64,000 nucleotides of DNA from the IMG/VR virus record IMGVR_UViG_2228664000_000024, positions 12,205 to 76,204 of that record; one strand, given 5' to 3'. The position numbers and the translations under genes are program-made. The notes under the pieces were generated by a model. It had not been told where the DNA came from. It worked only from the letters and a program-made list of their open reading frames with translations, and made no database searches. This document shows, piece after piece, positions 18,621 through 41,844 of the stretch (positions are counted from its first letter, which is position 1; the number at the start of each line of letters is the position of its first letter). The DNA is from a virus. Its lineage: Duplodnaviria; Heunggongvirae; Uroviricota; Caudoviricetes; Schitoviridae.

Positions 18621-18695
18621 GATGGGATAGCTAAACGGTGAAGCGGTAGACTGTTAATCTATGATAGCTGGGTTCGAGTCCCAGTCCCATCGCCA
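18621..18695 (+). tRNA. tRNA-Asn (anticodon GTT), CCA encoded
   Basis: Acceptor GATGGGA/TCCCATC. Anticodon loop CTGTTAA. T-arm CTGGGTTCGAGTCCCAG. Resembles E. coli tRNA-Asn. Confidence 0.85.
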
Positions 18696-18700
18696 AATTT

Positions 18701-18775
18701 GGTACTATAGTTCATCGGTTAGAATACTCCCCTGTCACGGGAGCGAGCCGGGTTCGATTCCCGGTAGTACCGCCA
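18701..18775 (+). tRNA. tRNA-Asp (anticodon GTC), CCA encoded
   Basis: Acceptor GGTACTA/TAGTACC. D-arm AGTTCATCGGTTAGAATAC. Anticodon loop CTGTCAC. T-loop TTCGATT. Confidence 0.85.
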
Positions 18776-18780
18776 AATAT

Positions 18781-18864
18781 GTGAGTGTGGCTGAACGGTT
18801 GAAAGCACCTGACTGTAAATCAGGCTCGAAAGACGTGGTGGTTCGAATCCATCCACTCACACCA
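18781..18864 (+). tRNA. tRNA-Tyr (anticodon GTA) with long variable arm, CCA encoded
   Basis: Acceptor GTGAGTG/CACTCAC. Anticodon loop CTGTAAA. Long variable arm. T-loop TTCGAAT. Confidence 0.8.
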
Positions 18865-18986
18865 AATTCTGAAGAGTGCCCATGTCTATTGGGGGATCAA
18901 CGGTGAGAAGCCGTGGTGTTCCTGCTGCAAGCCTTAAGTGGACAGAACAGCCAGCCTGGTGACGCAGGCAACTCTTCACCCTCTAT

Positions 18987-19061
18987 TGGGGTATAGCCAA
19001 GCGGTAAGGCAGGAGGCTTTGATCCTTCGATTCTCTGGTTCGAATCCAGATACCCCATCCA
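18987..19061 (+). tRNA. tRNA-Gln (anticodon TTG), U1-A72 pair as in E. coli tRNA-Gln, CCA encoded
   Basis: Starts TGGGGTAT as E. coli tRNA-Gln does. Anticodon loop CTTTGAT. T-arm TCTGGTTCGAATCCAGA. Confidence 0.8.
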
Positions 19062-32014: not shown

Positions 32015-33289
32015 ATGCAACATACTATCAATTTCGGTACTGGCTTCCAGAGATTCTCCGGCTGGGAATATCTCTGCATCGACGTAGCCAACCATTATGG
32101 GCTGGATAAAGAACTATTCAATACCCGCATTCAGTGGGTGTATGACCACATCGATAACCTGGAAACATTGGCAGATGATGCCGATGAACCAGTGCTGTTC
32201 AAGAAAGCTGTTATGACCCTTCGCCGTGCTCAGCACGGTGAGGCTGTAGGCCATGTAGTTCACTTCGATGCCTGCTGCTCTGGTATCCAGATTATGTCTG
32301 CACTTACTGGCTGTGAAGCTGGTGCATACAACACTGGTATGGTTGACCCGGATCAGCGTATGGATGCGTACAGCAACACCACTGGCGAGATGAACAAGAT
32401 TCTGCAAACCAAAGGGTTAGCAAGTATCACTGTTCCTCGTGGTGATGTTAAACAAGCCGTAATGACTTCAGGCTATGGCTCCAAAGCTGTACCTAAGAAG
32501 GTATTCGGTGAAGGTGAGATGCTGGACGTGTTCTACGATGCAGCTATGACCATCGCTCCGGGCGCATTTAAGCTCATGGATGAACTTCTGGAATCATGGC
32601 GTCCATTTGCCTTAGAACACCGTCTGGTGGCTCCTGATGGCTTCACAGCCGTCATTAAGGTAATGGAAACCAAGGAAACCAGAATTGAAGTGGATGAACT
32701 CGACCATGCAACGTTTACGCTGCAATACCGTGTGAACGAAGGTACAGAGCGTGGACGTGCTAACGTAGCGAATACCATTCACTTCTGTGATGCGTATCTC
32801 CTGCGTGGCATTGAGCGTCGTTGCAACTACGATCCAGTGGTTGTAAGCAATGCTCAGGAAGTCCTGCGTATGGCTGCTCTGGGCTATTCCTGCGGTAATA
32901 CGCAGATGGCTTGCACTGACGAACTCAGTGAACTACTGCCACTGTGCATTCGCTCTCACATCGCTGATGTGGCGCTTCTGCCATTGCTGCGTTGGGATAA
33001 CGTCATGTGTCTGCCTAAGTGGATGGTGCATAAGCTGCTGTCTATCGTTAACGATATGCTGTCTTACAAGCCATTCCCTATTCTGACTGTCCATGATGCC
33101 TTCGGTGCTCATGCCAATAACTGTGACCTCACTCGTTACTGGTACAAAGAGATCATGGCCGATATGGCTGATTCCAACCTGCTGGAAATGCTGATGTGCC
33201 AGCTTTACCAAATCACTGACGGTAAGTATGAAAAGCTCAGCCCAAATCTGGGAGATAAAATCAGGAACTCAAACTATGCGCTTTCTTAA
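32015..33289 (+). CDS. Phage RNA polymerase II, catalytic (palm) subunit, T7-like
   Basis: Motif A HFDACCSGIQIMSAL (T7 DGSCSGIQHFSAM). Motif B KQAVMTSGYGS. Motif C HDAFGAH (T7 HDSFGTH). Confidence 0.75.
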   Translation: MQHTINFGTGFQRFSGWEYLCIDVANHYGLDKELFNTRIQWVYDHIDNLETLADDADEPVLFKKAVMTLRRAQHGEAVGHVVHFDACCSGIQIMSALTGCEAGAYNTGMVDPDQRMDAYSNTTGEMNKILQTKGLASITVPRGDVKQAVMTSGYGSKAVPKKVFGEGEMLDVFYDAAMTIAPGAFKLMDELLESWRPFALEHRLVAPDGFTAVIKVMETKETRIEVDELDHATFTLQYRVNEGTERGRANVANTIHFCDAYLLRGIERRCNYDPVVVSNAQEVLRMAALGYSCGNTQMACTDELSELLPLCIRSHIADVALLPLLRWDNVMCLPKWMVHKLLSIVNDMLSYKPFPILTVHDAFGAHANNCDLTRYWYKEIMADMADSNLLEMLMCQLYQITDGKYEKLSPNLGDKIRNSNYALS

Positions 33290-33473: not shown

Positions 33474-33479
33474 CCACCA

Positions 33480-33502
33480 GCCACCCTTCGGGGTGGCTTT
33501 TT
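33480..33502 (+). terminator. Intrinsic terminator GCCACCC-ttcg-GGGTGGC plus TTTTT
   Basis: UUCG tetraloop plus U-tract. Confidence 0.8.
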
Positions 33503-34030: not shown

Positions 34031-34083
34031 TGAGTGAGTTGACGCTTTCGCGTCTGTATAACTTAATTTTCTCATTTCTGAAG

Positions 34084-34116
34084 GGCTATCCTATTTATTG
34101 GGATAGCCTATTTTTT
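34084..34116 (+). terminator. Intrinsic terminator GGCTATCC-(9 nt)-GGATAGCC plus TTTTTT
   Basis: 8-bp stem plus U-tract; likely end of the early transcription unit. Confidence 0.7.
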
Positions 34117-35693: not shown

Positions 35694-35930
35694 ATGGAAC
35701 ATGTAATTGAACATCCTCATCACAATGCGACTAAGACAGTCACGATTGAGCCTGTAAAGCTCAAACCTGGCTTAGCTTACCGTATTCGAATCACCTCTCA
35801 GAATTATTCTGGAAGAACCTCTATGTACTCTGAACAGAACATTGAGTTGATTCTATTTGAGGAAGAACTGGACGGGCTTATTACTGCCCTCAATAAAGCC
35901 AAAATGGCTAAGTTATTAGGGGTTAAGTAA
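35694..35930 (+). CDS. Hypothetical protein (78 aa)
   Basis: RBS GGAGAAA. Confidence 0.45.
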   Translation: MEHVIEHPHHNATKTVTIEPVKLKPGLAYRIRITSQNYSGRTSMYSEQNIELILFEEELDGLITALNKAKMAKLLGVK

Positions 35931-36292
35931 TGCCACCCAGTAAGAATCATCCCCATCCTGATCGTCGTCAGGAGATCTGCAATCGCATTATGCAACGTGT
36001 AGATATCCGTGACTGCGGTTATCGAGTTAATGGTGTTGTATCCCCTTGTCACGTATGGACTGGCCCCACTTCGGGCGAAGGACGAGGCGGAGGCTATGGG
36101 CGTATTAGCATCAACAGTCAGACGTGCGCTACCCACATCGTTATGGCTACCCACTATTTCGGTTATATCCCCGGCAATAAGCAGGTAGACCATAAGTGTC
36201 GTAATCGCTTGTGTTGTAATCCTGAGCATCTCGAACTGGTAAGCCAGAAAGAGAATTGCCGTCGTCGTGACAAAGCCCTAAAGGAGAAGTAA
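35930..36292 (+). CDS. HNH endonuclease (free-standing, homing-type)
   Basis: CHVWTG...GYGRI...HKCRNRLCCNPEHLELVSQKEN: His-Asn-His with a Cys4 zinc site. Confidence 0.75.
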   Translation: MPPSKNHPHPDRRQEICNRIMQRVDIRDCGYRVNGVVSPCHVWTGPTSGEGRGGGYGRISINSQTCATHIVMATHYFGYIPGNKQVDHKCRNRLCCNPEHLELVSQKENCRRRDKALKEK

Positions 36293-36495
36293 TGAATAAG
36301 TATTTCAAACTCTACCTGTACGCAGTAATCATATTGCTCGTATCGGGTGTGTTATACGGTGGCTTGCTGCCGTCAATGGTATCGGCTAACGATACTATCC
36401 TCGTGTTCATCGGCATTGCTGGTGCTCTGGTGTGGCCTGCTCTGGTGGTCACTTTTGTCTATCGTCAATTTAAGAAGAAATTTAAAAATGCGTAA
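36292..36495 (+). CDS. Small membrane protein (67 aa, 2 TM)
   Basis: RBS AAGGAGAAG; hydrophobic helices. Confidence 0.45.
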   Translation: MNKYFKLYLYAVIILLVSGVLYGGLLPSMVSANDTILVFIGIAGALVWPALVVTFVYRQFKKKFKNA

Positions 36496-37324
36496 ACTCA
36501 TCATGGGCTGCATCCTGGCAGTCGTTGCAATGACCTCGTTGACCGGCTGCTATGATCGTGTCGAACCAGGTAACGTAGGTATCATCGTCAACCGTCTGGG
36601 CGACGATAAAGGCGTTGACCAACAGGTCAAAGGCGTTGGCCGTTACTGGATCGGCTGGAACGAAGATCTGTATACGTTCCCGACGTTCAAACAAATGAAG
36701 ACCTACGACGAGAAGTTTTACTTCCAACTGTCGGACGGTACTCAAATCGGTCATCAACTGGCTATCAGCTATAAGGTCAATCCGACCAAAGTAGCGACTA
36801 TCTTCCAGACCTACCGTAAAGGTGTCGATGAAATCACTGACCAGGATCTGCGTCAGCGTATTGCCGATATCCTGAACCGTCAGGGCAACCTGATTAACAC
36901 CGACAAGTTTATTGACGGTGGTAAGTCTCGTCTGCTGGATAGCGTAGCTGATGCAGTCAAAAAAGAGATGGAACCAGTCGGTATCGACATTATGGCTATC
37001 TCCTGGGTAGGTGCGCCGGAATACCCGGACAACGTTAAGCGTGCAATCAACGCTAAAGTGGAAGCTACCCAGAAAACTCTGCAACGTGAGCAGGAAGTGC
37101 AACAGCGTATTGCTGAAGCAAACATGGCTCGTGAGCAAGCCAAAGGTGAAGCTGACGCCGTGGTACTGAAAGCAAAAGCGGAAGCTGATGCTATCAAACT
37201 GCGTGGGGATGCACTCCGTGAAAACCCTGGTGTAATGGAACTGGAAGCGATCAACAAGTGGAATGGCGTACTGCCTACCACGATGATTCCGGGTGCCTCT
37301 ACACCGTTTGTACCGGTTAAGTAA
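36492..37324 (+). CDS. Lipoprotein with SPFH/band-7 (HflK/C-stomatin-like) domain
   Basis: Signal peptide plus lipobox LTGC. N-terminal VEPGNVGIIVNRLG SPFH start. C-terminal Glu/Ala-rich coiled coil (QREQEVQQRIAEANMAREQAKGEADAVVLKAKAEADAIKLRGDA). Confidence 0.65.
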
Positions 37325-37391
37325 GTCCCTAAGCCAGATTAGAAATAGTCTGGCTTGTGAATCTTATTTTTCCACAACTCAGGAATAGGCC

Positions 37392-37790
37392 ATGAAAAAA
37401 CTTATTGTTGTTGCTGTCGCTGTTCTTTCTCTGTCTGGGTGCGTCGTCAACACGCCTGCACCTGCTCCGCAGGTTACGGCTGTTGCCTCCGCCCCGGCTA
37501 AGTCGGGTGAAGTGTGGTGCTTTGCTGATGCCAAGTTTGGCAAAGAGGCTGAGCAGCATTTAGGGCTGGTTTTCCTCACTGACAACGGTAACAGCTTCTC
37601 CGTGCGTAACCGAGAAGGTAAGACGGTGGTAGTCAGTCCGGTGCTGAATATCCCGGCGTCCAATTCCATGACAGCAACCGACTCTAAAGGTCTGCTGTAC
37701 TCCAAAGGTACTCAGCGTTTCGCTGGTTTCTATGGGGTATTCCGTAATTACACAGGTGGTCAAGACTATCTGACTTTCAATTGCCGTTAA
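37392..37790 (+). CDS. Lipoprotein (132 aa), lipobox LSGC
   Basis: Signal peptide MKKLIVVAVAVLSLSGC; RBS AGGAA. Confidence 0.55.
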   Translation: MKKLIVVAVAVLSLSGCVVNTPAPAPQVTAVASAPAKSGEVWCFADAKFGKEAEQHLGLVFLTDNGNSFSVRNREGKTVVVSPVLNIPASNSMTATDSKGLLYSKGTQRFAGFYGVFRNYTGGQDYLTFNCR

Positions 37791-37799
37791 GAGGTATTT

Positions 37800-38555
37800 A
37801 TGATCCTCCCAGAACAAGAAGAAGTTGCTGGCGTATTAGGCCGTGTCTTCGATGCGTATACTCGTTCCCGTGGTGTAATCCGACCTCACTTCATTCTTTC
37901 TGGTGAATCAGGATCGGGTAAGTCACACCTCATTAAAACGTTAGCCAAAGAGCGTGATATCGAGGTACTCGAAGTCAATGCTGCTGGCTTAACCAAAGAA
38001 GGTGTATCCGGTAACTCATTATCGAAAGCCTTAACTCCCCTGCGTAACATGAATGCTACTGGTGGCATCGTTATCTTCGTGGATGAGTTCGACAAGCTGT
38101 TTACCAACGGCGTAGGCGGTGATACCCATGAAGCCCTTGCTGGTGTTCAGAATGAATTTCTGACCATGCTGGAGAGCGATACAGCCAGCGTATTTGGCGA
38201 CTACGGTAAGTATGAAAAAGTTAACGTCGGTCAGACGCTTTTCGTGTTCGCCGGGGCTTTTAATGGTGAAGCCAACCTCACCCATGAACGTATGCGTGAA
38301 ATGGGTGTACGCACAGAATTCCTGGGGCGTGTAGCATTGCACTTCAGCACTACCCGTCCATCGCTTCAATCACTCCTGGATCTCGTCCCACAGAACATTC
38401 TTCTGATGGAATATCTGAAAGCTTTCAGTAAGCAAAACCAGAAGAAGAAGATCATCAATGAAATTCAGGCTCAAATTAAGATGGCCTACAAGAAGAATGC
38501 CATTGGCGTTCGTATCGTAAGTCAACTCGTCCATCAATACTTTTTACAGGTGTAA
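37800..38555 (+). CDS. AAA-type ATPase (251 aa)
   Basis: Walker A GESGSGKSH; Walker B VIFVDEFD. Confidence 0.65.
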   Translation: MILPEQEEVAGVLGRVFDAYTRSRGVIRPHFILSGESGSGKSHLIKTLAKERDIEVLEVNAAGLTKEGVSGNSLSKALTPLRNMNATGGIVIFVDEFDKLFTNGVGGDTHEALAGVQNEFLTMLESDTASVFGDYGKYEKVNVGQTLFVFAGAFNGEANLTHERMREMGVRTEFLGRVALHFSTTRPSLQSLLDLVPQNILLMEYLKAFSKQNQKKKIINEIQAQIKMAYKKNAIGVRIVSQLVHQYFLQV

Positions 38556-38560
38556 ATAAA

Positions 38561-39595
38561 ATGGCTGTCGAAACCCTTATCGCTGATGTAATCCCATTCG
38601 TTAAACGTGTTATCACCAAGCGCCTGGTTCCAATGATCCACGGTAGCCCGGCTATTGGTAAATCCGATATCGTCAAACAGATTGCGGCTGAAGCAAAACT
38701 GTTCGTTATCGATATCCGTCTGTCTATGTATGACCCGGCTGACCTTAATGGTCTGCCATTCCGTACAGAAAAGAACGGGCGTCAATTGGCAGAGTATCTG
38801 CCTTTCGGTGTCTTCCCTACCGAAGACACACCGATCCCAGAAGGTTATAAAGGCTGGCTCATCTTCATGGATGAACTGCCGTCAGCAGTCCCTGCTGTTC
38901 AGGCGGCTGCTTTTAAACTGATCCTGGATCGTGAAGTAGGTCAGCACAAGCTGCACCCAATGGCCTTCATGGTTGCCGCAGGTAACACTGAAGACGATGG
39001 TGCAATTGTTAACCCACTGCCGACTCCGTTGCAGTCACGTATGATCAACTTCAAGGTTAAACCAGAACTGAAATCGTTCCTGGCTTATGCCCTGAAGCAC
39101 GGTCTGGACTACCGCATCGCTGCGTTCCTCGAATTTAAACCAGAGTATCTGTATAAGTTCGACCCGAACCACGATGACCTGACTTACTCCTCACCTCGTA
39201 CTTTGATGTTCCTGTCAAAGTTAATCAACGGTGAAACGGTCACTCGTGACGATCTGGCGCTGGTTGCCGGTACTATCGGACAGGCTGCTGCGAATGAGTT
39301 TATCAGCTTTGTTAAGCTGTATGACGAAATCGCTAAGATCTCCGATATCGTCGCCAACCCAATGACGGCGAAGTGTCCAACCAACAACCCATCCCTGTGC
39401 TTTGCAATGGCTGGTTCATTGTCTCAGCACGCAACCAAAAAGAATCTGCCTGCCTTCATTCAGTACGCTGAACGAATGGATATGGAATACCAGATCATTA
39501 CCCTGCGCCAAATTCTCGGTCGTCATCCTGACCTCATGGACGAAGAGTGCATGGAAGAGTGGATCAACAAATATTCTTCCGAAATCTGGAACTAA
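38561..39595 (+). CDS. AAA+ ATPase, MoxR-like (344 aa)
   Basis: Walker A GSPAIGKSD; Walker B LIFMDELPS. Confidence 0.65.
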   Translation: MAVETLIADVIPFVKRVITKRLVPMIHGSPAIGKSDIVKQIAAEAKLFVIDIRLSMYDPADLNGLPFRTEKNGRQLAEYLPFGVFPTEDTPIPEGYKGWLIFMDELPSAVPAVQAAAFKLILDREVGQHKLHPMAFMVAAGNTEDDGAIVNPLPTPLQSRMINFKVKPELKSFLAYALKHGLDYRIAAFLEFKPEYLYKFDPNHDDLTYSSPRTLMFLSKLINGETVTRDDLALVAGTIGQAAANEFISFVKLYDEIAKISDIVANPMTAKCPTNNPSLCFAMAGSLSQHATKKNLPAFIQYAERMDMEYQIITLRQILGRHPDLMDEECMEEWINKYSSEIWN

Positions 39596-40160: not shown

Positions 40161-40742
40161 ATGTTTACTAAACAGCCGTGGCTTAACCCTCAAGGGCTTA
40201 TACCCACCGAACAGAAGTATAAGGATATGTACGAGCAATCGTGGCTATCCCAGTTTGAAAAGGCAGAAACAGTTCACATACTGGTTCCTTTAGCATTCTA
40301 TGAGGATGCAAAGGTGATTGCCGACAAACTGACAGAACCTAACGAATTTCGTAGTGATGTTCGTGTAGGCGATGACCTCTGTTTCCTGACTCGCAGTATA
40401 AAACCTTCCCGTCCTAACGTGTCTACAGAGCTATGCAAAGGGTTAATTCCTCACGGAACAGCCCTGTATAAAAACCAGAAAATGAAACGTGATCTAATCA
40501 CTGTTACCTGGTTTTACTGGGATTGGCAGTCTGCGTTAAAAAACCTCTTAACATCTTACGTAGAGATAGGATTACCAGAATCCATGTTACCTGAGTACAT
40601 GGCAACAGCCTCCGGTATTAGCTGGAAGGATCAGGTAGCCTATATCCATAAAATTAAAACCATTCAGTTATTAAAAGGTAACTCTGATGGACTTCCAAAA
40701 ACTACTGTCGAAAGCCCGAATTGGACTCCTGGCAAAGGATGA
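40161..40742 (+). CDS. Hypothetical protein (193 aa)
   Basis: RBS AAGGAAA. Confidence 0.45.
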   Translation: MFTKQPWLNPQGLIPTEQKYKDMYEQSWLSQFEKAETVHILVPLAFYEDAKVIADKLTEPNEFRSDVRVGDDLCFLTRSIKPSRPNVSTELCKGLIPHGTALYKNQKMKRDLITVTWFYWDWQSALKNLLTSYVEIGLPESMLPEYMATASGISWKDQVAYIHKIKTIQLLKGNSDGLPKTTVESPNWTPGKG

Positions 40743-41844
40743 GTTTGTATTCTACAGCTCAATCATTCTGGGCGTTAAACACTCCATCGATATCAAAGCA
40801 GAAACTGCTTATACCGATGGGTTGAACTGCTATTACAACCCAGAGTTCTTCGAGAAGCTTACCAAAGACGAACGTGAGTTTTTGGTAGCCCATGAAGGGC
40901 TTCACATTGCTTTAGAGCACTGTACCTCACGCTCTGCTGGTATGGATCCAGAACGCTGGAACGATGCCTGTGATTATGTAATTAACGACATTCTTATCCG
41001 TGCTGGCTTGAAAATGCCTGCCGGGGGCTTACATGATATCCAGTATCGGAACATGTCTACCCTACAGGTTTATCGTCTACTCGAAGAGAAGGATAAACAG
41101 AACGGCGGTGGTGGATCTGGTGGTAACCAGTTAGGTGGTAAGCAACTGCGTGACCTTAAAGAGCCATCAGCTAACGACCAGAAAAAGCGTGAAGAGATCA
41201 AGCAACAAGCCGAAGATCTCGTTATGCGTGGCAAAACTCTCGCTGAAATGTCTGGTGAAATGCCAGGTGAAATTGGCCCGGATCTGCAACGTATCATTGA
41301 TCGTCTGACTAAGCCTGTCATCCCGTGGCAACGTATATTACAAAGGTTCTTTAATGCTATGCAAAAAAATGATTTCACCTGGGCGCGTCCAAATCGTCGA
41401 TACATAAGCCAGGATATTTATCTACCTTCTATGCTATCACCTGCCCTGGGGCCGATTGACTTCGCCTGGGATACCTCTGGTTCAATCACCGACAAGATCT
41501 TTAACTATTTTGTTAGTGAAACCTACCATGTACTCAAACGCTTTAAACCAGAGTATGTAAACGTCATGCAATTCGATCATGTCATGCGTAGTCGTGACAA
41601 GGTTCGTAATATGCGTGATCTGTTAAAACTGGAAATGAAGGGTGGTGGTGGAACTCGTGTAGATGAAGCCATTGAGGCATTTGCTAAATCCAACTCTCAA
41701 GCACTCATTGTGCTGACGGATGGTTATGTGAATACTCACCACATCCCAGATCCAGGTAAGCCTGTAATCTGGTGCATTTACCATAACAAAGCATTCCAGC
41801 CACCTTGGGGGCAGGTAGTGCATTTCGAAATGCCGGAGGAGTGA
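40687..41844 (+). CDS. von Willebrand factor A domain protein with N-terminal HExxH metallopeptidase-like motif
   Basis: HEGLHIALEH (HExxH). MIDAS DxSGS (FAWDTSGSI). Gly-rich linker. Confidence 0.65.
   Translation: MDFQKLLSKARIGLLAKDEFVFYSSIILGVKHSIDIKAETAYTDGLNCYYNPEFFEKLTKDEREFLVAHEGLHIALEHCTSRSAGMDPERWNDACDYVINDILIRAGLKMPAGGLHDIQYRNMSTLQVYRLLEEKDKQNGGGGSGGNQLGGKQLRDLKEPSANDQKKREEIKQQAEDLVMRGKTLAEMSGEMPGEIGPDLQRIIDRLTKPVIPWQRILQRFFNAMQKNDFTWARPNRRYISQDIYLPSMLSPALGPIDFAWDTSGSITDKIFNYFVSETYHVLKRFKPEYVNVMQFDHVMRSRDKVRNMRDLLKLEMKGGGGTRVDEAIEAFAKSNSQALIVLTDGYVNTHHIPDPGKPVIWCIYHNKAFQPPWGQVVHFEMPEE

What the first reader, a model, noticed from the sequence alone, without database searches (positions are those of the whole stretch)
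36292..37790. Envelope-targeted cluster: small TM protein, SPFH/band-7 lipoprotein and a second lipoprotein
Three consecutive genes encode a 2-TM peptide (36292-36495), a 277-aa lipoprotein (lipobox LTGC) whose mature part is an SPFH/HflK-C-like domain with a Glu/Ala coiled-coil tail (36492-37324), and a 132-aa lipoprotein (LSGC, 37392-37790). SPFH scaffolds organise membrane microdomains and regulate membrane proteases such as FtsH. A phage-encoded, periplasm-anchored version in the middle gene block suggests superinfection exclusion, injection-channel blocking or manipulation of host envelope proteases. The cluster sits next to an HNH endonuclease and a LysM protein and may be a mobile accessory module.
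Basis: partly seen in the sequence, partly recalled or inferred. Interest (0 to 1): 0.65.

Follow-up and report, generated by a model that had tools for sequence, protein, structure and literature searches.

The report
Phage SPFH lipoprotein with membrane-hairpin partner
The three genes are real, but only the first two belong together: they match phage N4 genes gp19 and gp20, a small membrane hairpin plus a lipid-anchored SPFH scaffold protein found in many phages, whose function is still untested, while the third lipoprotein gene is a separate add-on.

Summary
The window is an N4-like (Schitoviridae) phage.

- **Gene 1 (36292-36495)** is a 67-aa two-TM hairpin, homologous to N4 gp19.
- **Gene 2 (36488-37324)** is a 278-aa lipoprotein (lipobox LTGC) with a Band_7/SPFH domain (Pfam E 1.7e-22). 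It is 81% identical to N4 gp20. Its model has an SPFH domain followed by a 65-residue helix. The best fold matches are prohibitin, HflK/C, erlin, stomatin and flotillin, all of which form cages.
- **Gene 3 (37392-37790)** is a 132-aa lipoprotein from a family of only 16 relatives. It is a clean indel relative to the closest phage, and in two other phages it occurs at the same position with no SPFH pair beside it. It is an independent cassette.

The hairpin and SPFH genes form a conserved module. They are adjacent in 76 of 80 viral contigs and adjacent or near-adjacent in 10 of 13 diverse phage loci. They usually overlap, and in at least 16 of 150 family representatives they are fused into one reading frame. 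SPFH homologues occur in 682 phage records and in about 10% of complete E. coli genomes. SPFH dN/dS is at most 0.045.

No function is published. My best inference is a prohibitin/HflKC-like cage on the periplasmic face of the inner membrane. FtsH or client sequestration, or superinfection exclusion, are the candidate roles.

The parts
36292..36495 (+). Gene for a 67-aa inner-membrane hairpin protein, the N4 gp19 homologue (phrog_1130). Its start overlaps the stop of the HNH gene by 1 nt, and its own stop overlaps the SPFH start by 8 nt.
   Evidence: ORF. phrog_1130 E 6.2e-19. 45% identity to N4 gp19. Two hydrophobic segments. dN/dS 0.08-0.10.
36364..36393 (+). Conserved turn between TM1 and TM2 (LLPSMVSAND). 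It is the only part of the hairpin predicted to face the periplasm. Family motif: P-x-[LM]-[VI]-S-[AS]-x-[DS].
   Evidence: P27 is invariant and S31 nearly invariant in an alignment of 10 partners from Entero-, Aeromonas, Alcaligenes, Burkholderia and Phaeobacter phages. The motif is visible in all 33 distinct partners from IMG/VR and in the fused proteins. The orientation is inferred from the Lys-rich N and C termini (positive-inside rule).
36488..37324 (+). Gene for a 278-aa SPFH/Band_7 lipoprotein, the N4 gp20 orthologue (phrog_200).
   Evidence: Pfam Band_7 E 1.7e-22. phrog_200 E 2.1e-96. 81% identity to N4 gp20. Moo19 gp31 is annotated 'SPFH protein, similar to N4 gp20'. dN/dS 0-0.045.
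36488..36550 (+). Signal peptide and lipobox L-T-G-C (Cys21). The mature N terminus is C-Y-D-R-V-E-P-G.
   Evidence: Sequence. Cys21 is invariant in 43 homologues. Of 117 close homologues with a lipobox, the residue after Cys is Y in 60 (followed by E, D or Q) and D in 50.
36557..37105 (+). SPFH/Band_7 domain (residues 24-206).
   Evidence: Pfam envelope. AlphaFold2 model: strands 21-97, helices 99-161, strand 166-178. Foldseek hits to prohibitin, HflK/C, erlin and stomatin.
37028..37276 (+). Long Glu/Ala-rich helix (residues 181-245), a short helix, and the conserved C-terminal motif NKWNGxLP (residues 256-263). This is the part that builds the wall and cap in the SPFH cages with solved structures.
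   Evidence: AF2 secondary structure. Residues 198-262 align to the prohibitin-2 coiled coil, E 3.6e-5. K257, W258, G260 and P263 are invariant or nearly invariant in close and distant homologues.
37330..37357 (+). 12-bp stem-loop just after the SPFH stop codon. It is conserved in the closest relative through compensatory base changes. It is probably a terminator, attenuator or processing site.
   Evidence: RNA fold -21.9 kcal/mol, z -2.7. The SABI sequence differs but keeps a perfect hairpin. It was not called by the terminator scan, which has a loop-length limit.
37392..37790 (+). Gene for a 132-aa lipoprotein (phrog_26640). It has lipobox L-S-G-C (Cys17), a Pro/Ala-rich tether (residues 18-39) and an all-beta domain (residues 40-132) with a conserved Cys43/Cys131 pair. 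It is an independent cassette.
   Evidence: ORF. phrog_26640 E 8e-44. Only 16 homologues among 5.8 billion proteins. Alignment. AF2 pLDDT above 93 for residues 40-132. Indel relative to SABI. Present with no adjacent SPFH pair in Kc283 and EK8.

Best explanation
**What it is.** Genes 1 and 2 are this phage's copy of the N4 gp19/gp20 module. It is a translationally coupled pair encoding a two-TM inner-membrane hairpin and a lipid-anchored SPFH protein exported to the periplasm.

**How it most likely works.** The SPFH lipoprotein stays at the periplasmic face of the inner membrane. There it oligomerises through its long C-terminal helix into a closed prohibitin/HflKC-like cage. The hairpin, one per subunit, supplies the transmembrane fence beneath the cage. 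The module is made before replication: from middle genes here and in N4, and from the early operons of lambdoid and P2-like prophages.

**What it most likely does.** It isolates a patch of inner membrane and the host machinery in it. I consider the likeliest client to be the FtsH protease, which the two same-topology relatives HflK/C and prohibitin control. Capturing FtsH would re-tune membrane proteostasis during the long infection.

**Gene 3** is a separate cassette. It encodes a lipoprotein with no inner-membrane retention signal, so it is probably outer-membrane anchored. It has a flexible tether and a small, probably disulfide-closed, beta domain. It most plausibly binds an envelope component, in the manner of an exclusion lipoprotein.

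**Shown versus inferred.** Shown: the gene structures, domain identity, fold class, pair conservation and fusion, purifying selection, early-operon position, and the independence of gene 3. Inferred: inner-membrane retention, cage formation, contact between the hairpin and SPFH, and every functional statement.
For: - **Identity.** Band_7 E 1.7e-22. PHROG families. N4 gp19/gp20 orthology.
- **Architecture.** The AF2 model has an SPFH domain plus a 65-residue helix. Full-length Foldseek matches at E 1e-11 to 1e-14 go to prohibitin 8rrh, HflK/C 7vhq/7wi3, erlin, stomatin, flotillin and QmcA. All of these are deposited as large complexes.
- **Pairing.** A two-TM partner is adjacent in 76 of 80 IMG/VR loci, with gaps of -20, -8, -4 or +3 nt. 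It is adjacent or near-adjacent in 10 of 13 diverse GenBank phage loci, with a shared loop motif. At least 16 of the 150 best 50%-identity representatives are in-frame hairpin-SPFH fusions. Most of these keep the lipobox. P0067 is a further fusion.
- **Inner-membrane, periplasm-facing location.** The partner is by nature an inner-membrane protein. In the fusions the order TM1-TM2-TM3-SPFH puts the SPFH domain outside. Homologues without a lipobox carry an N-terminal TM anchor (Phaeobacter MD18, Staphylococcus MbpS). 50 of 117 close homologues have Asp at +2, the classical Lol-avoidance signal. The N4-like clade has Tyr followed by an acidic or amide residue.
- **Function is under selection.** dN/dS is 0-0.045. 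The protein is 96-100% identical across relatives whose synonymous sites have diverged 12-35%.
- **Timing.** The pair lies downstream of the RNAPII genes in N4 and Moo19. It lies on the cI-to-int strand of an Stx2a prophage. It lies between cox and the replication gene of a P2-like prophage in UTI89.
- **Breadth.** 682 phage records hold a homologue, as do 536 of 5,426 complete E. coli genomes. This favours a generic, conserved target.
- **Gene 3 independence.**
Against: - No experiment exists for any family member.
- No multimer prediction could be run, so cage formation and hairpin contact rest on analogy and on gene fusion.
- This protein has Tyr, not Asp, at +2. Across the wider family +2 is most often Ser. 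Outer-membrane sorting of the lipoprotein forms is therefore not excluded.
- The protein is not an HflK or HflC orthologue (24.7 and 15.9 bits against cut-offs of 134 and 159), and it shares only 15-19% identity with any solved SPFH protein. Nothing in the sequence points specifically to FtsH.
- Some lineages have a different partner or none: Ounavirinae, Bruynoghevirus, and the single-TM MbpV of Kayvirus.
- In Kayvirus the pair sits beside the holin and endolysin genes, which hints at a lysis-related role instead.
Confidence: 0.45

Rival explanations
1. Superinfection exclusion at the inner membrane. The periplasmic SPFH assembly plus hairpin would seal or occupy the inner-membrane surface, so that DNA or ejection proteins of later-arriving phages cannot cross. 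In N4-type phages the trapped superinfection might also feed lysis inhibition.
For: - The module is made early, which is when exclusion is needed.
- In N4 and Moo19 it sits directly after a gene annotated as similar to the P22 gp17 exclusion gene.
- The N4 exclusion system has not been identified, and superinfection appears to trigger its lysis inhibition (PMC12642591).
- Known exclusion proteins such as T4 Imm and P22 SieA are small inner-membrane proteins (established knowledge).
- In an Stx2a prophage the pair occupies the accessory stretch between the immunity region and xis/int.
Against: - Exclusion proteins usually evolve fast and are specific to a type of phage. This protein has dN/dS of at most 0.045.
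- Versions in podo-, sipho- and myoviruses with unrelated injection machineries are about 63-65% identical.
- There is no match to any PADLOC defence model.
- No experiment has been done.
Confidence: 0.25
2. Membrane stabilisation or control of lysis timing. The SPFH scaffold would stiffen or organise the inner membrane so that it survives a long, high-yield infection. Alternatively it would corral holin or SAR-endolysin molecules to prevent premature lysis.
For: - In Staphylococcus Kayvirus the homologous pair mbpV-mbpS lies directly after holA-lysK (PMC7150955).
- N4 has delayed lysis, very large bursts, and a SAR endolysin tethered to the periplasmic face of the inner membrane (PMC12642591).
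- SPFH proteins generally organise membrane microdomains (established knowledge).
Against: - In N4-like phages, lambdoid prophages and P2-like prophages the pair is far from the lysis cassette and is made early.
- A selection of more than 60 N4 rapid-lysis mutants reported lysis-cassette, vRNAP, terminal-repeat and miscellaneous classes. None was reported in gp19 or gp20.
Confidence: 0.15
3. The three genes are one co-functioning, envelope-targeted cassette that moves as a unit with the neighbouring HNH homing endonuclease.
For: - The genes are contiguous and on the same strand, and the HNH stop overlaps the hairpin start.
- The content of this slot varies among relatives.
- The SPFH gene is far more similar to N4 (81%) than the flanking core genes are (30-39%). 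Against Moo19 the megablast match covers only the SPFH ORF.
Against: - Gene 3 is missing from vB_Ecl_SABI as a precise indel between a shared ribosome-binding site and the ATPase start codon.
- Gene 3 occurs with no adjacent SPFH pair in Kc283 and EK8.
- Gene 3 is separated from the pair by a conserved stem-loop.
- The position of the HNH gene relative to the pair differs: upstream here, downstream in N4.
- Prophage copies of the pair have no HNH neighbour.
Confidence: 0.05

Closest known systems
Phage N4 gp19 (membrane protein) and gp20 (lipoprotein); PHROG families phrog_1130 and phrog_200
   Same: - Same gene order, sizes (67-68 aa and 278 aa) and 8-nt overlap.
- Same position downstream of the RNAPII genes.
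- 45% and 81% protein identity.
   Different: - The neighbours differ. N4 has a P22 gp17-like gene upstream and the HNH gene downstream. Here the HNH gene is upstream and an extra lipoprotein gene is downstream.
- Neither N4 protein has a published function.
E. coli HflK/HflC, the SPFH cage around the FtsH protease (PDB 7vhq, 7wi3)
   Same: - Same overall fold and length: an SPFH domain, one long helix and a C-terminal tail.
- Same predicted topology: anchored at the N terminus with the body on the periplasmic side of the inner membrane.
   Different: - Only 15-18% identical, and it fails both equivalog models.
- Anchored by a lipid rather than a TM helix.
- One SPFH gene rather than two paralogues.
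- It has a dedicated two-TM partner that HflK/C lacks.
- Binding to FtsH has not been tested.
Eukaryotic prohibitin PHB1/PHB2 complex (PDB 8rrh, 9o9z)
   Same: - Best structural match (E 7e-14).
- The only solved protein detected by sequence alone, through the coiled-coil region (E 3.6e-5).
- Same N-anchored topology, facing the compartment equivalent to the periplasm.
   Different: - 17-19% identity.
- Mitochondrial and hetero-oligomeric.
- No lipobox and no hairpin partner.
Bacterial SPFH-NfeD operons (QmcA-YbbJ, PDB 8z5g; YqiK-YqiJ)
   Same: An SPFH gene coupled to a small membrane-protein gene in one operon. QmcA is also a structural match (E 1e-7).
   Different: - The partner here has 67 residues, with no soluble OB-fold domain and no NfeD match.
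- QmcA and YqiK face the cytoplasm (established knowledge), whereas this protein is exported.
Staphylococcus Kayvirus MbpV/MbpS
   Same: A small membrane-protein gene abutting an SPFH gene in a virulent phage. MbpS is a detectable homologue (about 28% identity by tblastn, E 2e-12; 23% in the multiple alignment; gene layout).
   Different: - MbpS is anchored by a TM helix, not a lipid.
- MbpV has one TM plus a charged tail and lacks the loop motif.
- The pair lies beside the holin and endolysin genes.
Receptor-blocking exclusion lipoproteins Llp (T5) and Cor (phi80/N15), compared with gene 3 only
   Same: A small phage lipoprotein with no inner-membrane retention signal (+2 Val), a conserved Cys pair, and presence/absence variation among close relatives.
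   Different: - No homology. The phrog_1119 (Cor) hit disappears when the signal peptide is removed.

Membership tests
SPFH / Band_7 superfamily (PF01145) | Match to the Band_7 profile above Pfam's gathering score | tested here: met
   80.7 bits against a cut-off of 23.6, E 1.7e-22, residues 24-206 matching profile positions 2-171 of 176.
SPFH / Band_7 superfamily (PF01145) | SPFH alpha/beta domain followed by a long coiled-coil helix | tested here: met
   AF2 model (mean pLDDT 76) with strands 21-97, helices 99-161 and a helix over 181-245. Full-length Foldseek matches to prohibitin, HflK/C, erlin, stomatin and flotillin.
SPFH / Band_7 superfamily (PF01145) | Assembly into a large membrane-attached ring or cage | not testable with these tools
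   Only monomer prediction was available. This is inferred from the architecture and from the fact that all top structural matches are cage complexes.
HflK / HflC (FtsH modulators) | Score above the equivalog cut-offs TIGR01933 (hflK) and TIGR01932 (hflC) | tested here: not met
   hflC 24.7 bits against 134.4; hflK 15.9 bits against 159.4.
HflK / HflC (FtsH modulators) | Two paralogous subunits, each with an N-terminal TM anchor | tested here: not met
   There is a single SPFH gene here and in every locus examined. Its N terminus is a signal peptide plus lipobox, not a stable TM anchor.
HflK / HflC (FtsH modulators) | Physical association with FtsH | not testable with these tools
   Needs a pull-down or cryo-EM.
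SPFH-NfeD operon | Partner protein carrying an NfeD (OB-fold) domain | tested here: not met
   The 67-aa partner has no NfeD match in Pfam or NCBIfam. It gives only sub-threshold hits to IncD and SecE TM regions, and it is too short to hold a soluble domain.
Bacterial lipoproteins (both gene 2 and gene 3) | N-terminal signal peptide ending in a lipobox [LVI][ASTVI][GAS]C | tested here: met
   LTGC with Cys21 in gene 2, invariant in 43 homologues. LSGC with Cys17 in gene 3, invariant in 17 sequences. Pfam LPAM_1 scores 18.9 bits for gene 3, just below its cut-off of 20.
Bacterial lipoproteins (both gene 2 and gene 3) | Actual lipidation, LspA cleavage and membrane destination | not testable with these tools
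   No LipoP or SignalP was available. The destination is inferred from the +2/+3 residues: Y-D in gene 2 and V-V in gene 3.
N4 gp19/gp20 module (phrog_1130 + phrog_200) | Homology of both proteins, with adjacent, overlapping genes in the same order | tested here: met
   phrog_1130 E 6e-19 and phrog_200 E 2e-96. BLASTP to N4 gp19 gives 45% and to gp20 gives 81%. The 8-nt overlap is the same as in N4, Moo19, SABI and Tribble.
Cor / Llp superinfection-exclusion lipoproteins (gene 3) | Homology of the mature protein to the Cor family (phrog_1119) | tested here: not met
   The full-length protein hits phrog_1119 at E 1.1e-5 over residues 1-62 only. The mature protein (residues 18-132 and 40-132) gives no hit.
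Known anti-phage defence systems (PADLOC) | Match of any of the three proteins to a defence-system model | tested here: not met
   No hits at E of 0.01 or below.

The most novel reading that the evidence does not exclude
The hairpin plus SPFH lipoprotein is a virus-built nanocompartment on the periplasmic face of the inner membrane, and it is the missing N4-type superinfection-exclusion device. It would cap or occupy inner-membrane entry sites, so that later-arriving genomes are stopped in the periplasm. In N4-like phages this would supply the signal for lysis inhibition. The same device would be reused by hundreds of unrelated phages and prophages.
Probability: 0.15. Interest if true: 0.8.

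Novelty: new member of a known kind. Interest (0 to 1): 0.4.

Why it matters
Phage-encoded SPFH proteins are common. Homologues occur in 682 of about 50,700 phage records and in prophages or phage-plasmids of about 10% of complete E. coli genomes. They are under strong purifying selection and sit in early operons. Even so, I found no paper that assigns them a function.

The comparative work here adds one concrete, testable point. The SPFH protein has an obligate-looking two-TM partner that is often left unannotated and is repeatedly fused to it. The functional unit is therefore a membrane hairpin plus a periplasm-facing SPFH scaffold.

If this unit encloses FtsH or blocks DNA entry, it would be the first viral use of an SPFH cage. 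It could also identify the uncharacterised exclusion and lysis-inhibition input of N4.

For this particular window, though, the genes are an ordinary copy of an already annotated module plus a small lineage-specific lipoprotein.

Tried and rejected
1. **Cor-like identity for gene 3.** The PHROG hit was due to the signal peptide and vanished for the mature protein.
3. **NfeD identity for the hairpin.** No match.
4. **A defence-system match.** None in PADLOC.
5. **HflK/HflC orthology.** Far below the cut-offs.
6. **Literature on a function.** Searches combined SPFH with N4-like, phage-encoded, prophage and Schitoviridae; N4 gp19/gp20; N4 superinfection exclusion; and CRISPRi-ART. They found only annotation-level mentions or statements that the role is unclear.
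7. **The hairpin as a cleavable signal peptide.** The turn resembles a signal peptidase I site (V-S-A|N). However, homologues have Met or Gln at -1, or Pro at +1, so cleavage is unlikely to be the conserved feature.
8. **A uniform Asp+2 inner-membrane signal.** This holds for the enterobacterial prophage clade only. Across 50%-identity representatives, Ser is the commonest residue at +2.
9. **The terminator scan.** It did not call the stem-loop after the SPFH gene because of its loop-length limit. Folding and comparison were used instead.
Full report
**Context.** The window is an N4-like podovirus (Schitoviridae).
- The 4-kb stretch around the finding is 93.7% identical to Enterobacter phage vB_Ecl_SABI. 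It also matches Klebsiella, Shigella, Pectobacterium, Erwinia and Kosakonia N4-like phages.
- The finding lies in a block of + strand genes downstream of a T7-type RNA polymerase gene (32015-33289). This corresponds to the N4 middle region.

**The observation.** All three ORFs are present.
- Gene 1 (36292-36495) encodes 67 residues with two hydrophobic segments and Lys-rich ends.
- Gene 2 starts at ATG 36488, not 36492, which is out of frame. It ends at 37324 and overlaps the stop of gene 1 by 8 nt.
  - It begins MRKLIMGCILAVVAMTSLTGC, a signal peptide with lipobox LTGC.
  - It matches Pfam Band_7 at E 1.7e-22, with 80.7 bits against a cut-off of 23.6.
- Gene 3 (37392-37790) encodes 132 residues with lipobox LSGC.
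- The HNH endonuclease and LysM neighbours are confirmed.

**Genes 1 and 2 are N4 gp19/gp20.**
- They match phrog_1130 ('membrane protein', E 6e-19) and phrog_200 ('lipoprotein', E 2e-96).
- The Moo19 record annotates its orthologues as similar to N4 gp19 and gp20, the latter as an 'SPFH protein'.
- N4 has the same two genes with the same overlap. BLASTP gives 45% identity for the hairpin and 81% for SPFH.

**Structure of the SPFH protein.**
- With a 43-sequence alignment, AlphaFold2 (mean pLDDT 76) gives a signal helix, a beta-rich then alpha/beta SPFH domain (residues 21-178), one unbroken helix (181-245), a short helix and a flexible tail.
- Foldseek against the PDB aligns nearly the whole chain. 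The matches are human prohibitin (8rrh, E 7e-14), E. coli HflK/C (7vhq, 7wi3), erlin, stomatin, flotillin and QmcA. All are deposited as large membrane complexes.
- By sequence alone, only the prohibitin-2 coiled coil is detected (E 3.6e-5).
- The HflC and HflK equivalog models are missed by a wide margin. The protein is therefore an SPFH family member with a prohibitin/HflKC-like architecture, but not an HflK/C orthologue.

**The hairpin is a conserved partner.** I examined 13 GenBank phage loci holding an SPFH homologue.
- In nine, a 49-77-aa two-TM ORF abuts or overlaps the SPFH start. In a tenth (Klebsiella Seu621) it lies one small gene further upstream.
- These loci span N4-like, lambdoid, Aeromonas, Alcaligenes, Burkholderia, Phaeobacter and Vequintavirinae phages.
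- The partners share a turn motif, P-x-[LM]-[VI]-S-[AS]-x-[DS], between the two TM segments.
- In 80 IMG/VR loci retrieved with an alignment of diverse SPFH proteins, 76 have the adjacent two-TM ORF, at gaps of -20, -8, -4 or +3 nt.
- The partner is often unannotated, for example in an Stx2a prophage and on a 95-kb E. coli plasmid.
- An exhaustive HMMER search of 1.84 billion cluster representatives found 180 relatives at E of 1e-30 or below. Among the best 150, 19 carry an N-terminal extension of 55 residues or more. In 16 of these the extension is the hairpin, with its loop motif, fused in frame ahead of the signal-like segment. The lipobox is usually retained.
- Adjacency, translational coupling and recurrent fusion together argue that the two proteins act as one unit in the same membrane.

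**Where the unit sits (inference).**
- The hairpin's positive ends place both termini in the cytoplasm and the short conserved turn in the periplasm.
- In the fusions, the order TM1-TM2-TM3 places the SPFH domain outside the inner membrane.
- Homologues without a lipobox carry an N-terminal TM anchor (Phaeobacter MD18, Staphylococcus MbpS).
- Among 117 close homologues with a lipobox, 50 have Asp at +2, the classical E. coli Lol-avoidance signal (established knowledge). 60 have Tyr followed by Glu, Asp or Gln, as here (C-Y-D).
- From memory, aromatic +2 residues can also retain lipoproteins in the inner membrane (Seydel et al. 1999). I did not verify this.
- Across the wider family, +2 is most often Ser. 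Outer-membrane sorting of some members is therefore not excluded.

**Selection and distribution.**
- SPFH is identical in protein sequence to SABI although dS is 0.20. It is 96-97% identical to the Tribble and Moo19 proteins at dS 0.85 and 0.54. dN/dS is 0-0.045, as low as or lower than for the neighbouring AAA ATPases.
- It is 81% identical to N4 gp20, whereas the flanking conserved genes (N4 gp24 and gp25) are 38% and 30% identical. Against Moo19 the megablast match covers only the SPFH ORF. This means strong constraint, probably combined with gene-sized horizontal exchange.
- tblastn finds homologues in 682 phage records. These include Kayvirus, Pseudomonas, Burkholderia and Caulobacter phages, crAss-like phages and Lak megaphages.
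- The enterobacterial prophage version, with its hairpin, is found in 536 of 5,426 complete E. coli genomes, on chromosomes and on plasmids of about 95 kb.

**Timing.** In temperate elements the pair lies in early lytic operons.
- In an Stx2a prophage it is on the cI-to-int strand, before xis/int.
- In a P2-like prophage of UTI89 it lies between cox and the replication gene.

**Gene 3 is separate.**
- It has only 16 homologues in 5.8 billion proteins, all apparently from N4-like contigs.
- Compared with SABI it is a clean indel of about 410 bp. The stem-loop after SPFH and the AGGAAT ribosome-binding site are shared. In SABI that site serves the AAA ATPase gene.
- In Kc283 and EK8 it sits in the same slot with no SPFH pair beside it. 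In Pectobacterium phages the two occur together.
- The mature protein starts C-V-V-N, with no retention signal. It has a conserved Pro/Ala-rich tether, and invariant Cys43 and Cys131.
- AF2 predicts a nine-strand all-beta domain (residues 40-132, pLDDT above 93). The Cys residues lie in or next to the first and last strands, so a disulfide closing the domain is plausible. I could not inspect the coordinates.
- No informative structural relative was found. The Cor-family hit is a signal-peptide artefact.
- A role as a tethered outer-membrane lipoprotein that binds an envelope component is an analogy with Llp and Cor only.

**Function.** The papers I found mention phage SPFH genes only as annotations, or say the role is unclear.
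- A 2025 preprint states that the N4 superinfection-exclusion system is uncharacterised. Its rapid-lysis selection did not report gp19 or gp20 mutants.
- I commit to the structural mechanism as most likely: a lipid- and hairpin-anchored SPFH cage on the periplasmic face of the inner membrane, made early in infection.
- For the purpose, I rank capture or insulation of a conserved inner-membrane client first. FtsH is the candidate by analogy with HflK/C and prohibitin. The breadth of hosts and the extreme conservation fit a conserved target better than an arms race with other phages.
- Superinfection exclusion comes second, and membrane or lysis-timing control third. None has been tested.

**Verdict.** The finding is accurate, apart from a small error in one start coordinate, and its domain calls are right. 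However, the genes are a routine copy of an already annotated, widespread phage module plus an unrelated small lipoprotein cassette. The wider family remains an open and experimentally tractable question.

Noticed in passing
window 37330-37357: A 12-bp stem-loop sits immediately after the SPFH stop codon. In vB_Ecl_SABI the stem sequence differs but still pairs perfectly, through compensatory changes. It is probably a terminator, attenuator or RNA-processing site that separates the SPFH pair from the next gene.
   Followed up: partly
window 36488-37324 compared with 38561-39595 and 40687-41844: The SPFH protein is 81% identical to N4 gp20, while the flanking conserved middle genes (N4 gp24 and gp25 homologues) are only 38% and 30% identical. 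Against Moo19, only the SPFH ORF aligns by megablast (89.9% nucleotide identity). This suggests gene-sized horizontal exchange on top of strong constraint.
   Followed up: partly
L004 3816-4004; L096 3230-3448: The hairpin partner gene is not annotated in an Stx2a-converting prophage (LC567841) or on a 95-kb E. coli plasmid (NZ_CP074704), although a clear 62-72-aa two-TM ORF overlaps or abuts the SPFH start. This small gene is probably under-annotated in many records.
   Followed up: yes
proteins P0139-P0283 and P0067: In many lineages the hairpin and SPFH reading frames are fused into one protein of 320-390 aa that still contains the internal lipobox Cys. This raises the question of whether LspA cleaves it and releases the two parts.
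   Followed up: partly
window 37800-38555: A 251-aa AAA+ ATPase (PF00004 E 1.9e-14, AAA_2 E 2.6e-9, phrog_5534) follows gene 3. It is annotated 'ClpX' in SABI and 'ATP-dependent protease' in Kc283. It gave no BLASTP hit among the N4 gp18-gp32 proteins compared.
   Followed up: no
window 36364-36393: The hairpin's conserved turn (LLPSMVSA|ND) looks like a signal peptidase I site: Pro at -6, Val at -3 and Ala at -1. Homologues with Met or Gln at -1, or Pro at +1, argue against conserved cleavage, but this was not tested with a predictor.
   Followed up: partly
L096 (NZ_CP074704.1 67132-74873): On a 95-kb E. coli plasmid the SPFH pair sits among tRNA genes and next to a gene annotated as the Thoeris anti-defence protein Tad2. 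This places it in an accessory, counter-defence neighbourhood.
   Followed up: no
GenBank PQ898399.1 (Enterobacter phage SonariX, 248,734 bp), region 198290-202263: This 249-kb record gives the same megablast match to the window as the 76-kb N4-like phage vB_Ecl_SABI (same identity, coverage and bit score). It may be a chimeric or co-assembled record.
   Followed up: no
window 18621-19061: A cluster of four tRNA genes (Asn, Asp, Tyr, Gln) lies on the + strand.
   Followed up: no
window 33479-33498 and 34083-34109: Two strong terminator-like stem-loops with T tracts lie upstream of the gene block that holds the finding. They may delimit transcription units in the middle region.
   Followed up: no
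window 35930-36292: The stop of the HNH endonuclease gene overlaps the hairpin start by 1 nt (TAATG). The HNH gene's position relative to the SPFH pair differs among relatives: upstream here, in SABI and in Tribble, but downstream in N4 and Moo19. This is consistent with a mobile homing endonuclease.
   Followed up: partly
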